From the NCBI RefSeq assembly GCF_006345805.1, contig NC_043026.1, forward strand, positions 7,254,001 through 7,318,000: 64,000 bases of DNA. The letters run 5' to 3'. This document shows, piece by piece, positions 650-58,982 of this stretch. The translations under genes and the position numbers were made by a program. Origin of the DNA: Octopus sinensis. Taxonomy: Eukaryota. Position 1 is the stretch's first letter. Each line of letters begins with the position of its first letter. The notes beneath the pieces are model-generated. The model was not told the DNA's origin and did no database searches. It saw only the letters and a list, made by a program, of their open reading frames with translations.

Positions 650-1010
650 CGTGAAGCCGGCTTTGAGTCGAACCAGGGACAGCTTATGAAAGGGAATATT
701 CCTTGTATTGTTTGTCTTGTACTCTGTTTTTCGTTGTTAAAAAAAGTCCATTTCCTAGTTTGTTCTTATGTTTTCGTTTCTCGTTGAGTTCTATGTTTAT
801 TTGTGGTGTCCTGTACTCATATATATATATATATATATATATATCATCATCATCATCATTTAGCGTCCGTTCTCCATGCTAGCATGGGTTGGACGGTTCA
901 ACTGGGGTCTGGGGAGCCCGAAGGCTGCACCAGGCCAGTCAGATCTGGCAGTGTTTCTACAGCTGGATGCCCTTCTTAACGCCAACCACTCCGAGAGTGT
1001 AGTGGGTGAT

Positions 1011-1287
1011 TTTATGTGCCACCGACACAGGTGCCAGACGAGGCTGGCGAACGGCCACGCTCGGACGGTGTTTTTATGTGCCACCGACACAGGTTCCAGA
1101 CGAAGCTGGCGAACGGCCACGCTCGGACGGTGTTTTTATGTGCCACCGACACAGGTGCCAGACGAAGCTGGCGAACGGCCACGCTCGGACGGTGTTTTTA
1201 TGTGCCACCGACACAGGTGCCAGACGAAGCTGGCGAACGGCCACGCTCGGACGGTGTTTTTATGTGCCACCGACACAGGTGCCAGAT
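1011..1287. repeat. 62-bp tandem repeat, about 4.4 copies, inside a family C element
   Basis: atgtgccaccgacacagg recurs at 1014, 1076, 1138, 1200 and 1262. Confidence 0.95.
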
Positions 1288-21409: not shown

Positions 21410-21740
21410 TCATCATCATCATCATCGTTTAACGTCTGTTCTCCATGCTAGCATGGGTTGGACGGTTCGACCGGGGATCTGGGAAGCCAGAAGGCTGCAC
21501 CAGGCTCCAGTCTGATCTGGCAGTGTTTCTACAGCTGGATGCCCTTCCTAACGCCAACCACTCCGTGAGTGTAGTGGGTGCTTTTTACGTGCCACCTGCA
21601 CAGGTGCCAGGCAAGGCTGGCAACGGCCATGATCAGATTGGTGTATTTTACGTGCCACCGGCACAGAAGCCAGTCGAGGCGGCACTGGCATCGGCCACGA
21701 TTCGGATTATGCTTTTTACGTGCCACTGGCACGGAAGCCA
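21410..21740 (-). mobile_element. SINE or LINE-tail family C ending in (GAT)n, representative copy
   Basis: AAAGCACCCACTACACTC...GGCGTTAGGAAGGGCATCCAGCTGTAGAAAC...CCATGCTAGCATGG...GTTAAACGATGAT. Other copies at about 1-140, 845-1290, 5400-5820, 5970-6133, 8025-8183, 9500-9705, 16110-16322, 29940-30390, 36620-36895, 38683-39015, 44750-44998, 51098-51365, 52073-52690, 59765-60178. Confidence 0.85.
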
Positions 21741-29809: not shown

Positions 29810-31182
29810 GTGAGTCTATCCATGCCTGCTTCTGTTTACCACAACCTGTATTATGTAGTGGCCAAGGCAACGAACCTAGGAGATGGAGAACTCTCATAGA
29901 AAAACCTGGGGCCTGTTGTTCACTGAGTTAGCAGCATTTCATCATCATCATCATCATCATTTAACGTCCGTTTTCCATGCTAGCATAGGTTGGACGGTTC
30001 AACCGGGGTCTGGGAAGCCAGGAGGCTGCACCAGGCTCCAGTCTGATCTGGCTGTGTTTCTACAGCTGGATGCCCTTCCTAACGCCAATCACTCCGTGAG
30101 TTTAGTGGGTGCTTTTTGTGCCACCAGCACAGATGCCAGGGGAGGCTGGCAGCAGCCACGATCAGTTGGTGCTTTTTATGTGCCACTGGCACAGGTATCA
30201 TAACTACAATTTCCATTTGATATTTATTTTGATGTTTATGTACTTGACTCAATAGGTCTCCTCAAGCACAGCAGGTCATGTGCCACCGGCACAGAAGCCA
30301 GTCAAGGCGGTGCTGGCATCAGCCACGTTCGGATGGTGCTTTTTACGTGCCGCCAGCACAAGTATCATAACTACAATTTCCATTTGATATTGGCACCAAT
30401 TTTCTGCTCTCAGCATTTCCATAATGGGTGGCTGGTCCTATATAAGTCTTCATCATTGGAAATGAATCATCTGTGTAGGTAGTCTTTAAAGAGACCCCTT
30501 CAATCATTAATGACCGTGGGATTGCACCCACAAAGTTCCCTTCCGAGGCACAAGTCCAGGCAAGGTTGTTTATGGAAGACCAGCAGTCCCCCATGCATAC
30601 CAGCCTCCCCCTCTTTATGCCACTGATGTTGTCCAAGGAAAAGGTAAAAGGGCCAATACAGCTTGGCACCTGTGATGTCACAAATCATTTCTACAGCAGA
30701 GTGAACTGGAGCAACGTGAAATAAAGTGTCTTGCTCAAGAACACAACATGTAGCCAGGTCCAGGAATTGAACTCACTACCTTAATGACTGAGCCCAACGT
30801 TCTAACCACTGAGCCATGCACCTTCACAGCAGTCTTAATGCCCATAATATTGACTGTTGAAGCTGACCAGAGAACCGTCTTAGGAGCAACCATGCTGCGT
30901 GGCAAGAAATTTGCTTCTTGGTTGCATGGTTCCAGCTTCAGTCCCATGGCACGACACCTTGGGCAAGTGCTTTCTACTTAAACCTTGGGCCAACCAAAAT
31001 TATACCCGAACCTGTGTCTTTGCGTATGTGTGTGTGTGTTTGTGTGTGTGCGCACACACATGTGTGTATGTGTATGTGACTGTGTGTGTGACTGAGTGTG
31101 TGCCTCTGTGTGTGTGTGACTGTGTTTGTGTGTGTGTGTGTGTATGTGTATATGACTGTGTGTGCCTCTGTGAGTGTGTGAC

Positions 31183-33890: not shown

Positions 33891-34093
33891 GTGAGTCCAT
33901 CACGTTTTGTTACCTTACATATATATATAGTGAGATAATTAATAAATTACTATTACAGAGATGTACTTGCATAGCAAGTGACCCGATCTGAGATTGTGTG
34001 CTGGAACGAAAGCAATTGCAGCATGGAAGGTGTTTAGAAGACATTTAAGAAACACACAAAAACCGTTCGATTCACTTCAAAATTTAAATTTAA

Positions 34094-34144
34094 TTTGCCA
34101 AAATATTTTCGTCGCTTTCAGACCGTGACCTGTTCACTGACAAA
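34094..34144 (-). ncRNA. Minimal hammerhead-like motif with a G3-C8 core variant
   Basis: - strand: TTTGTCA-GTGAACA-G-GTCAC-loop-GCGAC-GAAA-ATAT-TT-TGGCAAA. Confidence 0.55.
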
Positions 34145-34274
34145 ATTCTGTGCTGCATCTCTAATAAATTACTACTTATTAATTAAAAATTTGACCAACA
34201 TCTCTTACAGCTGTAAGAAATGTTTGTCAATTTTTAATTTAAAAATAATATATATATATGTATATCCTGGCACA

Positions 34275-34849
34275 AATATCTGCCGGGATATCAAAAAGGA
34301 GATCTCACGGAGAGTAAGGGCCGGATGGAAGGCGTTCAATGGCATAAGGGATGTGCTCAAGGGAAGGTTGGACAGGACCACCCACGCCAACCTCATTAAC
34401 AGTGAAGTTCTGCCTGCAATGTTATATGGTAGTGAAACATGGGGCTACCACAAAGAGAGAAGAGCAAAGACTGGTAACGGCTCAAAGAGCCATGGAAAGG
34501 TCAATGCTTGGTATCTCGTTGAGAGAGCACATAAGTAGCAAGATCATCAGAAAGAAGTCCGGCGTGAGGGATGTCATCGCAGAGTATACACGCAGCAAGT
34601 ATAGATGGGCTGGACACGTCGCCCGGCTCACCGATAATCGGTGGATGTATACAGTTATCGAGTGGTACCCGCGTGAGCGGAAAAGACCACCTGGAAGACC
34701 TCCATGACGGTGGAGTTATGATTTCAGGAGGACGATTGGGATCGTGTGGGTGAGAAAGGCGCGATCCAGAGAGGAGTGGACAGCGTGCTGTGACCAGTGG
34801 TATCAAATGGACGCCTGACAGACTGGTCGGTCAAAGTGATCAAAGTGAT
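34275..34849 (+). mobile_element. RTE-clade LINE 3' end
   Basis: EISRRVRAGWKAF...VLPAMLYGSETW...RWAGHVARLTDNRW...EWYPRERKRPPGRPP; tandem tcaaagtga tail. Confidence 0.85.
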
Positions 34850-36407: not shown

Positions 36408-37078
36408 ATAGCATGTTCAAAAAGTCTCTCTGCAGTAAGAATTTGATTACAAAATGAATATAAGATGGTATAAGATGGTATAAGATGGTATAAGTCTACA
36501 AAAGAATATATTAGGCTTTACAAGACTTTAAAAAGAATTTATAAGAGGGAGTTGAAAGGGCCGTCCTTCATTTTCAATACATAAGTTGACTCTTCTACAC
36601 ATGTTTTGGAATACATTATCATCATCATCGTTTAACGTCTGCTTTCCACGCTGCCATGGGTTGGACGATTTTGACTGAGGACTGACCAACCAGATGGCTG
36701 CACCAGGCTCCAATCTTCATCTGGCAGAGTTTCTACAGCTGGATGCCCTTCCTAATGCCAACCACTCCGAGAGTGTAGTGGGTGCTTTTTACATGCCACT
36801 GGCACGGGGGCCAGTCAGGTGGTACTGGCAATGACCTCGCTTGAATCTTTTTACACATGCCCACCAGCACAGGTGCCAGTGAAGCAACGTTGGCACTATA
36901 TCTATATCTATATATAGCTTGTTCAAAAAGTCTCTCTGCAGTAAGAATTTTATTGCAAAATATATATTTCTAAGATGGTATAAGACTCCAAAATAATATA
37001 TTAGACTTTACAAGACTTTAAAAAGAATTTATAAGAGTTGTTGGAAGTGTTCTCCTTTGTTTTCAATACATAAGTTTC
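36408..37078 (-). mobile_element. Two Tc1/mariner terminal fragments (about 36408-36615 and 36915-37078) separated by a SINE
   Basis: repeated TAtAGC.TGTTCAAAAAGTCTCTCTGCAG end; VFQNMCRRVNLCIENEGRPFQ resembles a transposase C-terminus. Confidence 0.6.
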
Positions 37079-38215: not shown

Positions 38216-39807
38216 TTAGAAGTTGTTGATGTTGTTGCATGTTCCACATCTCCTATCTCCACATTCTTTTACTAAGAATTCTGATGAATCAGATAAATTA
38301 CAAAGATATACTTTCAGTTGTTTGAGCTTTTGTTTAATGTGTGATTTTCCATGCTAGCATGAGTTGACCAGGTATTGATTCTGAGGTAGAAATTTCTGGC
38401 TAATTACTGGATCTTATTCCTGCTAACCATCATCTTTTTTTGAAATAAGGGATTCCTAGAGTCGAGTACAGGTCAAGTGAAAGTGCGAAGCTAGCTGTCA
38501 TTAATGACAACGACAAACGTCAACATCATCATCTCTTTGTTGAAATGGTGACAGGAAAACTGTCAACACTGATGCTCAATCACACACACACACATATGCA
38601 GATATATATAAATATATATATAATATATACATATATATATATATATATGACTAGCCCTCTCTCTCTCTCTATATATATATATATCATCATCGTTTAGCGT
38701 CCGCTTTCCATGCTAGCATGGGTTGGACGGTTCAACTGGGGTCTGTGAAGCCAGAAGGCTGCATCAGGCCCAGTCTGATCTGGCAGTGTTTCTATGGCTG
38801 GATGCCCTTCCTAACGCCAACCACTCCATGAGTGTAGTGGGTGCATTTTACGTGCCACCTGCACAGGTGCCAGACGGAGCTGGCAAACGGCCACGGACGA
38901 ATGGTGCTTTTTACATGCCACCAGCATGGGGCCAGGCGAGGCTGGCAATGGCCACAAACGGATGGTGCTTTTTACGTGCCACCGGCACGGAGGCCAGTCG
39001 TGGTGGCGCTGGCAATGGAAAATAAACGATATGTTGAAATTGCTTTGAGATACATCAAAAAGTAGAGCTTTTACTTGTTAACAAGTGACCAGGAAGTTCT
39101 AACATTTGGGATTTTCAATAAATTCTACATTTGCTGGAACAGAAAAATGCAAAGTTTATATTTTGTAAGGAAACCCAAGTTAACTTTCTTGAGATGTAAT
39201 TTATAAGTTAAGTTTGGATTCCTTAATGACAATGTATCCTTCATATAACTGAGGTATCCTCAGCTTGATGAGTAACTGGTGGAGTACCCCTTGAGTAATT
39301 ATTTACTAACTAAGTAATGCACACCTGAGTCCTACATGTTATAACATGTAAATGTACAAACATCTTCAGTGTTAGCTAAAAATGAAAGTCAGCTGACTGA
39401 TAAGTAAGGCCTCACTGGCACTAAGTGTTTCTTTCTACCTGGGCATCTTTGAACTTAGTAACTAAGAAACATGTAGCCTGGATACACACACTAGCAATGC
39501 ATACTGGTGTTGCCTAGGTGTTATGATCTACAGCCACACTGTATTATTTGTTCCTTTACGGGCACAATCAGCACAGCTGGGAATGGTGAACTGGATTACT
39601 GGCATAATGGAAGTTATTGGTTTGTTTAAAAGTGAAGGGAGAGAGTACAATTTGCATGTATATATATATATATATACACACACACATTTATGAATTTGTG
39701 TTGCAAAGATGTAATGACTATACCAAAGTACAAACATCGTCCAACCCATGCCAGCATGGAAAGCAGACGTTAAACGATGATGATGATGATGCACCTGCAT
39801 ATATGTA

Positions 39808-57879: not shown

Positions 57880-58982
57880 GGAACTGGTACGGGGATGCAC
57901 CAATGCCATCATTCGAGCTTAAGAAGAGGAGAAGTTGGCAAAAAACGAAAGCGGAACTCGCTGCCTTCAGTCTGGTTTTTGAGCCTAATTTGACCCGTGG
58001 TCATGAATGTTGGGTAGAGACCAGAACAAAAGAATCAGAACTACGAGTGGCAGAAATGGGGCTCCTCTGAAGGGTGTCCACGGTGTGTAGCTCAGAGATC
58101 AGGGAGTCCGTCCAGATTGAACCACTTCTCTGCACTGTGAGGTCACAACCCTGGTATTGCAGACGTGTGACTCGGAGGTCACAACCCTGGTATTGCAGAC
58201 GTGTGACTCGGAGGTCACAACCCTGGTATTGCAGACGTGTGACTCGGAGGTCACAACCCTGGTATTGCAGACGTGTGACGAGAGGTCACAACCCTGGTAT
58301 TGCAGACGTGTGACTCGGAGGTCACAACCCTGGTATTGCAGACGTGTGACTCGGAGGTCACAACCCTGGTATTGCAGACGTGTGACTCGGAGTCACAACC
58401 CTGGTATTGCAGACGTGACTCGGAGGTCCAACCCTGGTATTGCAGACGTGTGACTCGGAGGTCACAACCCTGGTATTGCAGACGTGTGACTCGGAGGTCA
58501 CAACCCTGGTATTGCAGACGTGTGACTCGGAGGTCACAACCCTGGTATTGCAGACGTGTGACTCGGAGGTCACAACCCTGGTATTGCAGACGTGTGACTC
58601 GGAGGTCACAACCCTGGTATTGCAGACGTGTGACTCGGAGGTCACAACCCTGGTATTGCAGACGTGTGACTCGGAGGTCACAACCCTGGTATTGCAGACG
58701 TGTGACTCGGAGGTCACACCCTGGTATTGCAGACGTGTGACTCGAGGTCACAACCTGGTATTGCAGACGTGTGACTCGGAGGTCACAACCCTGGTATGCA
58801 GACGGTGACTCGGAGGTCACAACCTGGTATTGCAGACGTGTGACTCGGAGGTCACAACCCTGGTATTGCAGACGTGTGACTCGGAGGTCACAACCCTGGT
58901 ATTGCAGACGTGTGACTCGGAGGTCATAACCCTGGTATTGCAGACATGTGACTCGGAGGTCACAAGCAAGAATCTCAAGACA
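57880..58982 (+). mobile_element. RTE-clade LINE fragment hosting a minisatellite
   Basis: LTRGHECWV...AEMGLL*RVS...SSEIRESVQIEPLL...RSQ.WY..RVTR.SQARISRQ. Confidence 0.7.
58139..58965 (+). repeat. 36-bp minisatellite, about 23 copies
   Basis: unit GAGGTCACAACCCTGGTATTGCAGACGTGTGACTCG, head-to-tail with no spacers and occasional 1-2 nt indels. Confidence 0.97.

What the first reader, a model, noticed from the sequence alone, without database searches (positions are those of the whole stretch)
34094..34144. Natural hammerhead core variant with the C3-G8 pair flipped to G3-C8
The motif has a 7-bp stem I, a 5-bp stem II with one mismatch consistent with CpG decay, GAAA, a palindromic AAAATATTTT stem III and UU, but the core reads GTGAACA instead of CTGANGA. 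Established: positions 3 and 8 form a Watson-Crick pair in the active fold, and the double swap restores activity in mutagenesis studies. Two compensatory changes at exactly those positions argue for selection on catalysis, and standard CUGANGA searches would miss this family (inference).
Basis: partly seen in the sequence, partly recalled or inferred. Interest (0 to 1): 0.8.

Follow-up and report, generated by a model that had tools for sequence, protein, structure and literature searches.

The report
Swapped-core hammerhead in Penelope retroelement
A jumping-gene family with about 7,000 copies in this genome (likely an octopus) carries a hammerhead-shaped RNA motif in which two paired core letters are swapped, while related families keep the usual pair or a known variant of it, so it is likely a natural variant of a self-cutting RNA, though cutting is predicted and not shown.

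Summary
The motif lies in a 206-bp processed copy of the 3' repeat of an endonuclease-bearing Penelope-like element (PLE), flanked by a 13-bp target duplication. The parent element (RT plus C-terminal GIY-YIG) carries the motif about 1 kb behind its ORF. A genome pattern with positions 3, 7 and 8 left open matches 7,358 places (control 2); 95% have G3 and 93% C8. Related PLE lineages in the same genome keep C3-G8 or U3·G8/U3-A8 and show compensatory changes in all three helices, so the swap is a real covariation in a homologous minimal hammerhead. Catalysis is not shown. None of 81 copy ends starts at the cut site, a young sister family spread with A9C, and this window copy is decayed and predicted to misfold. 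I found no natural G3-C8 hammerhead in the papers I could read, but the largest survey (Lünse 2017) was not available. The scan noted G3-C8 before in protist PLEs and phages (unchecked notes). Verdict: new variant of a known kind; likely a weak, dimer- or protein-assisted ribozyme.

The parts
33956..34161 (-). Short processed copy (206 bp) of the 3' repeat of a Penelope-like element, from just inside an intron-acceptor-like site to the distal 3' end (tail)
   Evidence: Bounds; 89-95% identity to the best genome copies over about 210 bp; matches the 3' end of ORF-bearing parents L147, L148, L152
34094..34144 (-). Minimal type I hammerhead motif with G3-C8 core
   Evidence: family counts; cross-lineage pair counts
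34131..34137 (-). Core strand GUGAACA (G3 at 34137, C8 at 34132, A9 at 34131)
34111..34129 (-). Stem II (34129-34125 with 34115-34111; one A·C mismatch in this copy) and 9-nt loop II; preceded by the extra G at 34130
   Evidence: the loop differs between subfamilies while the stem does not
34102..34110 (-). G12-A13-A14 and the palindromic helix III AAUAUU (A15.1 at 34107 to U16.1 at 34102), predicted to pair between two molecules
   Evidence: A15.2-U16.2 here versus G-C in sister lineages
34100..34101 (-). Predicted cleavage site, after U17 (34101)
   Evidence: Inferred from hammerhead numbering; not observed in RNA
33956..34030 (-). 3' tail region; family arms end either near +130 or near +190, the two-ended signature described for PLEs
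   Evidence: Arm ends; interpretation from PMC11167929 (section 3, part 2) and PMC8557442 (passages)
33940..33952 (.). Target-site duplication, 13 bp, copy beyond the element's 3' end
34162..34174 (.). Target-site duplication, 13 bp, copy at the element's 5' end

Best explanation
This is a decayed genomic copy of the minimal type I hammerhead carried in the 3' repeat of an endonuclease-bearing Penelope-like retroelement whose lineage carries G3-C8 in place of C3-G8, and the intact version likely still cuts itself weakly, as a dimer or with help from the element's protein. Shown: the motif, its parent element, its fixation in the family, and paired changes against sister lineages. Inferred mechanism: G3-C8 keeps the Watson-Crick pair that positions the 2'-OH of residue 8 (the general acid), G12 stays the general base, two motifs pair through the AAUAUU palindrome to form helix III, and the cut falls after U17. 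The short copies likely come from a short transcript starting at or spliced onto the acceptor-like site about 20 nt before the core, copied by internal initiation of the element's RT from uncut RNA. The window copy is likely inactive.
For: Parent: a 1,042-aa frame and P0001; homologues hit RVT_1 (6 of 44) and GIY-YIG (5 of 44); the motif lies 866-1,139 nt behind the ORF in 23 of the 30 best ORF loci, all 23 with GUGAACA. L148 (87% aa) has the same loop II as the window copy. Fixation: 7,358 matches, 361 not G3, 550 not C8; 89 of the first 100 listed rows are G3-C8; 33 of 42 tail-selected copies read GUGAACA exactly. Homologous sisters: an old family shares stems I and II and has a related tail (4 of 32 loci at E<0.01; none in reversed or 20 shuffled controls), with pairs U·G 19, C-G 6, U-A 4, other 3 of 32. 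A young family (about 55% aa identity) has C3 in 95 and G8 in 100 of 100 listed rows. In a hand-picked 20-row alignment, 94.6% of cells pair (shuffled 84.9%, 0 of 500) and 7 of 13 pairs change on both sides, in helices I, II, III and the 3-8 pair; U4, G5, A6, G12, A13, A14, A15.1 and U16.1 never vary. Intact copies fold stems I and II as their lowest-energy state. Literature: the C3G/G8C double mutant partly restores cleavage in a PLE hammerhead, which needed the element's protein (PMC11167929).
Against: No cleavage data. 0 of 81 tail-selected arms start at the predicted cut (+36/37), 1 starts within +33 to +40, while 40 start at -30 to -14 and 9 beyond -40. The young sister family (2,323 matches) has C at position 9 in 96 of 100 listed rows, and the old one is mostly U3·G8, so the core in this clade tolerates changes expected to lower activity. 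Between the two G3-C8 subfamilies, the motif outside loop II is no more conserved than the tail (1 of 42 versus 8 of 135, p 0.69); only loop II stands out (5 of 9, p 0.0003), and that may be one event. The pair counts reflect three or four lineages, not 20 independent sequences, and the sister loci were picked by patterns that required non-G3 or Y3/R8. In PMC11167929, catalytic mutants did not affect insertion in vitro. The window copy's hammerhead fold scores -1.0 against -8.3 kcal/mol for a rival fold. No tandem full-length element with two same-strand motifs was found.
Confidence: 0.62

Rival explanations
1. The fold is kept for a non-catalytic job, such as binding the element's protein, pairing two RNAs or setting up the RT start site. 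Cleavage is negligible or irrelevant, and the 3-8 pair matters only as a structural contact.
For: Copies derive from uncut RNA; A9C in a successful sister family and U3·G8 in another; cleavage was dispensable for insertion in vitro in another PLE (PMC11167929); Naiad PLEs spread without canonical hammerheads (PMC8557442).
Against: Eight unpaired or junction core positions, including G12, are invariant across lineages about 45% diverged in protein. Position 3-8 pairs in 19 of 20 aligned rows, a pair known from the active fold (PMC3088659).
Confidence: 0.28
2. A dead relic: the hammerhead lost function in this lineage, and two neutral transversions happened to fall on positions 3 and 8 before the family expanded.
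For: Any stepwise path from C-G to G-C passes a mismatch, which abolishes cleavage in tests (PMC11167929); all copies share one origin, so copy number adds nothing; the motif is no more conserved than the tail between the two subfamilies.
Against: The same lineage kept all nine other core positions and perfect stems, while loop II, the inside of helix III and the flanks diverged from the sisters; A15.2-U16.2 versus G-C is a second compensated change.
Confidence: 0.08
3. A chance look-alike in AT-rich repeat DNA, not a hammerhead homologue.
For: The window copy has no folding signal and no Rfam match.
Against: 0 of 100 shuffled windows give the motif; it sits in the PLE 3' repeat where hammerheads are expected; sisters carry CUGAUG in register.
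Confidence: 0.02

Closest known systems
Minimal type I hammerheads of metazoan Penelope-like elements (Cervera and de la Peña 2014, PMC4209133; read: main text parts 1-2 of 4, supplement parts 1-2 of 3)
   Same: Location in the PLE terminal repeat, type I layout, one extra nucleotide between 9 and 10.1, G10.1-C11.1, tiny palindromic helix III, mostly solitary genomic copies. An intron end lies just 5' of helix I in D. virilis Penelope; an acceptor-like site lies at a similar place here.
   Different: The core starts GUGA, not CUGA or UUGA. The paper reports U3-A8 as the natural covariation, and none of the 56 aligned motifs in its Fig. S3 starts GUGA.
Natural U3-A8 hammerheads (Perreault 2011, PMC3088659; read: passages and section 8)
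   Same: A compensated change of the 3-8 Watson-Crick pair in nature.
   Different: U3-A8 is reachable by two transitions through a U·G wobble, which is seen in the old sister family here. G3-C8 needs two transversions through a mismatch.
Engineered C3G/G8C rescue mutant of the Anolis Poseidon (PAc) hammerhead (Frangieh 2024, PMC11167929; read: passages and section 3 part 2)
   Same: Same core swap in a PLE hammerhead, partly active; internal RT starts giving a two-ended tail; uncut RNA as template.
   Different: Engineered, not natural; in PAc the ORF starts inside the motif, whereas here the motif lies about 1 kb behind the ORF.
Neptune/Nematis-type EN+ PLEs (Craig 2021, PMC8557442; read: passages and supplement searches)
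   Same: RT followed by a C-x3-C-x2-C linker and C-terminal GIY-YIG, inverted 5'-truncated arms, tail at one end, AT-rich or (TA)n targets.
   Different: Clade not placed by a tree here; the motif's sequence is absent from that paper's supplement (0 hits for two probes).

Membership tests
Hammerhead ribozyme (type I, minimal PLE form) | Three-way junction with stems I and II supported by compensatory changes | tested here: met
   both-sided changes at 3 of 5 stem I pairs and 2 of 5 stem II pairs across lineages; hand-picked rows, and some stem II changes may be CpG decay
Hammerhead ribozyme (type I, minimal PLE form) | Core positions U4 G5 A6 A9, G12 A13 A14, A15.1-U16.1, H17 | tested here: met
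   All present in the window copy; all but position 9 invariant in 20 rows
Hammerhead ribozyme (type I, minimal PLE form) | Literal consensus C3 and G8 | tested here: not met
   G3 and C8 in 95% and 93% of 7,358 matches
Hammerhead ribozyme (type I, minimal PLE form) | Watson-Crick pair between positions 3 and 8 | tested here: met
   G-C in this family; C-G, U·G and U-A in sisters; by sequence only, no structure probing
Hammerhead ribozyme (type I, minimal PLE form) | Palindromic helix III allowing a dimer | tested here: met
   AAUAUU palindrome; predicted co-folds pair the palindromes between strands; dimer not observed
Hammerhead ribozyme (type I, minimal PLE form) | Self-cleavage after position 17 | not testable with these tools
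   No assay; 0 of 81 genomic arms start at the site
Rfam hammerhead models (e.g. RF00163) | Score at or near the family threshold | tested here: not met
   No hammerhead family listed for the window at E up to 5 or for L075, L003, L314, L303 at E up to 10; the C3-G8 sisters are missed as well
EN+ Penelope-like element | Single ORF with RT and C-terminal GIY-YIG endonuclease | tested here: met
   1,042-aa frame. P0001 itself has no Pfam hit; homologues hit RVT_1 in 6 of 44 and GIY-YIG in 5 of 44; the profile's best PDB hits are RTs
EN+ Penelope-like element | Inverted 5'-truncated arms and a tail at one end | tested here: met
   Arm coordinates; inverted ORF-bearing insertions L105 and L106
EN+ Penelope-like element | Intron in the terminal repeat, found both retained and removed | tested here: inconclusive
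   Branch-point-like and acceptor-like sequence in 20 of 77 copies; 25 of the other 57 start GAG at that point; no matching donor found and no RNA joint seen
EN+ Penelope-like element | Tandem arrangement with a 5' pseudo-LTR | tested here: inconclusive
   The longest copy (L147) has one motif and no 5' repeat; no full tandem was recovered
Neptune/Nematis clade | Placement in an RT tree with reference elements | not tested
   Only the linker motif was read from P0001 against the description in PMC8557442

The most novel reading that the evidence does not exclude
An active natural hammerhead with cytidine at the general-acid position 8, not described in print, fixed in one of the largest retroelement families of this genome and flanked by sister lineages carrying C3-G8, U3·G8, U3-A8 and A9C. 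Together they form a natural allelic series that shows how a ribozyme core crosses a double-transversion gap and lets one test what PLE hammerheads are for.
Probability: 0.4. Interest if true: 0.62.

Novelty: new variant of a known kind. Interest (0 to 1): 0.47.

Why it matters
If it cuts, the laboratory rescue mutant C3G/G8C exists as a successful natural lineage, and hammerhead descriptors need a fourth 3-8 state. Surveys built on CUGANGA, including those that scored some PLE groups as lacking canonical hammerheads (PMC8557442 used cuganga strings for its core search), would then undercount. The role of PLE hammerheads is an open question. One genome holding related elements with G3-C8, C3-G8 plus A9C, and U3·G8 gives a ready comparison of cleavage rate against amplification success. 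If it does not cut, it points to a non-catalytic use of the fold.

Tried and rejected
Rfam: no hammerhead hit at the window or in intact copies. The RF00163 genome search scored only 74 of 265,813 candidates; its 7 hits have CUGANGA cores and belong to other families. RNA: no RNA holder listed on record by the run search. One raw RNA run (X24, about 6% read, reads on both strands alike) was laid twice; it shows family reads but no pile-up of ends and no splice joint. Fragmented RNA-seq cannot show cleavage, so this is not used either way. A tight G3-C8 pattern in viral contigs gave 13 hits, none with a convincing fold; this neither supports nor excludes phage cases. MITE/DNA transposon reading (short terminal complementarity) rejected: duplications of 8 nt or more and variable length in 12 of 22 solo copies (no control run), inverted truncated arms and an RT parent. 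A 4-kb-spaced array on C1 turned out to hold truncated short copies, not tandem full elements (the last part of that script failed). No splice donor explaining the GAG start was found. My descriptor missed the young sister's motif because it required A9; it was seen by eye and confirmed in all 12 loci. In 14 of 19 more divergent ORF loci no family motif was found downstream. Literature searches for a natural G3-C8 case found none. Not held, so unseen: Lünse 2017, Martick and Scott 2006, Przybilski and Hammann 2007, Hammann 2012. Repbase/Dfam were not available.

Full report
Observation. The motif is on the minus strand, 34144 to 34094. Parsed with hammerhead numbering it has a 7-bp stem I with one U·G pair, the core GUGAACA (G3 at 34137, C8 at 34132), one extra G, a 5-bp stem II with one A·C mismatch, a 9-nt loop, GAAA, the palindrome AAUAUU as helix III and U17 at 34101. 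A descriptor with this core finds only this site in the window and none in 100 shuffled windows. The copy itself is decayed: it folds no better than shuffles, and its hammerhead fold (-1.0 kcal/mol) loses to a rival fold (-8.3). Intact copies L003 and L075 form stems I and II as their best fold, at -13.8 and -14.7. Rfam does not report it.

The repeat. The motif lies in a 206-bp unit (33956-34161) flanked by a 13-bp duplication. The best genome matches cover about 210 bp at 89-95% identity. Two exact 46-47-nt versions that differ only in loop II occur 388 and 1,184 times, with controls of 0. A pattern leaving positions 3, 7 and 8 open matches 7,358 places (control 2); 361 are not G3 and 550 are not C8. 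About a third of the listed exceptions belong to a sister family (36 and 31 of the 100 rows shown, counted by eye). The rest are mismatch mutants, and no listed row has C3-G8 in this family's context. In copies picked only by their downstream tail, 33 of 42 read GUGAACA exactly. So G3-C8 is the family state. This is one inherited event, not thousands of independent ones.

The parent. Copies often come as two head-to-head arms, one ending near +130 and the other near +190, which matches the inverted-arm and tail signature of Penelope-like elements (PMC8557442; PMC11167929). Longer insertions hold an ORF: 793 aa in L106 and a 1,042-aa frame in L147. [quoted passage not shown] P0001 has no Pfam hit of its own; among 44 aligned sequences, 6 hit RVT_1 and 5 hit GIY-YIG, and the profile's best PDB hits are RTs. 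The best named homologue is an Octopus vulgaris protein at 55%, so the host is likely an octopus. The motif lies 866-1,139 nt behind the ORF in 23 of the 30 best loci, always with GUGAACA; it was found in 5 of 19 more divergent loci, one of which (L148, 87% aa) has the window copy's loop. About 20 nt before the core, long copies have a branch-point-like and acceptor-like sequence (20 of 77 copies), and 25 of the other 57 begin GAG at that point. This suggests a short spliced or internally started transcript; no donor was found.

Is the swap a covariation? Two sister groups in the same genome answer this. An old family (63 matches) shares stems I and II, and its tail is detectably related (4 of 32 loci at E<0.01, none in controls). 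Its 3-8 states are U·G 19, C-G 6, U-A 4 and mismatch 3 of 32, but these loci were chosen by patterns that excluded G3. A young family with an ORF about 55% identical to P0001 has the motif at the same place. With positions 3, 7, 8 and 9 open it matches 2,323 places, and of 100 listed rows 95 have C3, 100 have G8 and 96 have C9. In a hand-picked 20-row alignment, 94.6% of cells pair against 84.9% shuffled (0 of 500), 7 of 13 pairs change on both sides, and the 3-8 pair reads C-G 6, G-C 6, U·G 6, U-A 1, unpaired 1. The number of covarying pairs alone does not beat the shuffles (77 of 500), and the rows stand for three or four lineages. Still, helices I, II and III each carry a compensated change, and eight core positions never vary.

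Evidence against selection on cutting. Of 81 distinct arms taken from the first 100 of 2,774 tail matches, none starts at the predicted cut and one starts within four bases of it; 40 start near the acceptor and 9 keep the upstream part. Integrated copies therefore come from uncut RNA, as reported in vitro for the Anolis element, where catalytic mutants inserted normally and the C3G/G8C rescue was partial and needed the protein (PMC11167929). The young sister spread with A9C. Between the two G3-C8 subfamilies, the motif outside loop II differs at 1 of 42 columns against 8 of 135 in the tail (p 0.69); loop II differs at 5 of 9, possibly in one event. The RNA lays were uninformative.

Mechanism. 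Most likely the intact motif works as other minimal PLE hammerheads are proposed to: two motifs pair through helix III, or the element's protein helps folding; G3-C8 holds residue 8 so that its 2'-OH can act as general acid (role of the G8 2'-OH from PMC6155905 and PMC8495972); and the RNA is cut slowly after U17, perhaps to free the element from a longer transcript. All catalytic steps are inferred. I put this at 0.62, a non-catalytic structural role at 0.28, a dead relic at 0.08 and chance at 0.02.

Novelty. PLE hammerheads are known, and so is natural U3-A8 (PMC4209133; PMC3088659). None of the 56 motifs in Cervera's Fig. S3 starts GUGA, and two probes for this motif are absent from Craig's supplement. 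A 2026 octopus repeat paper does not mention ribozymes (PMC13282606, term search). Eight library searches found G3-C8 only as an engineered variant (PMC11167929, PMC8495972, PMC3884650; passages). Lünse 2017, which I recall as the largest survey of PLE hammerheads, was not held, so absence from print is not established; part 3 of Cervera's supplement was also not read. Earlier notes of this scan report G3-C8 candidates in protist PLEs and phages (unchecked); my narrow viral scan did not confirm a phage case. Other papers seen only as passages or in part: PMC6765202, PMC10085705, and bioRxiv 10.64898/2026.07.22.740005 (part 1 of 5). Verdict: new variant of a known kind, interest 0.47.

Noticed in passing
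L314:4863-4912 and L315-L325; 2,323 genome matches: A young sister PLE family whose hammerhead keeps C3-G8 but has C at position 9 (96 of 100 listed rows) and an A·C mismatch in stem I; a second core variant fixed in a successful family.
   Followed up: partly
L063-L066, L069, L287-L313: Old short-copy family with mostly U3·G8 and a helix III that would form tandem G·A pairs in a dimer; no ORF-bearing parent found within 1.5 kb.
   Followed up: partly
L147 about 20 nt upstream of the core; window 34161: Short copies often begin GAG exactly at an intron-acceptor-like site, while long copies have CAG or TAG there; a very short first exon or a copied cap are possible; the donor was not found.
   Followed up: partly
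window 34170-34250: An AT-rich imperfect palindrome of about 75 bp next to the insertion; RNA reads with shared differences map to it, so it is probably another small repeat.
   Followed up: no
window 34275-34750 (+): Broken reading frames that look like the C-terminal part of an RTE-type LINE reverse transcriptase (recalled resemblance; Pfam gave no supporting hit).
   Followed up: partly
L326-L332: Other repeat families in this genome carry canonical CUGANGA type I hammerheads above the RF00163 cut-off.
   Followed up: no
L107 and L108 (C1:212.10-212.12 Mb): Three copies of the short element spaced about 6.1-6.3 kb apart, beside processed-looking frames resembling dCMP deaminase (recalled resemblance); a local tandem duplication.
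   Followed up: no
window 58139-58965: A 36-bp tandem array, 23.3 copies at 96% match, in a GC-richer stretch; not examined for coding.
   Followed up: no
window 1005-1286, 21579-21740, 30002-30391, 36674-36884, 38840-38997: Copies of an abundant repeat with 61-68-bp internal tandem units, probably a SINE.
   Followed up: no
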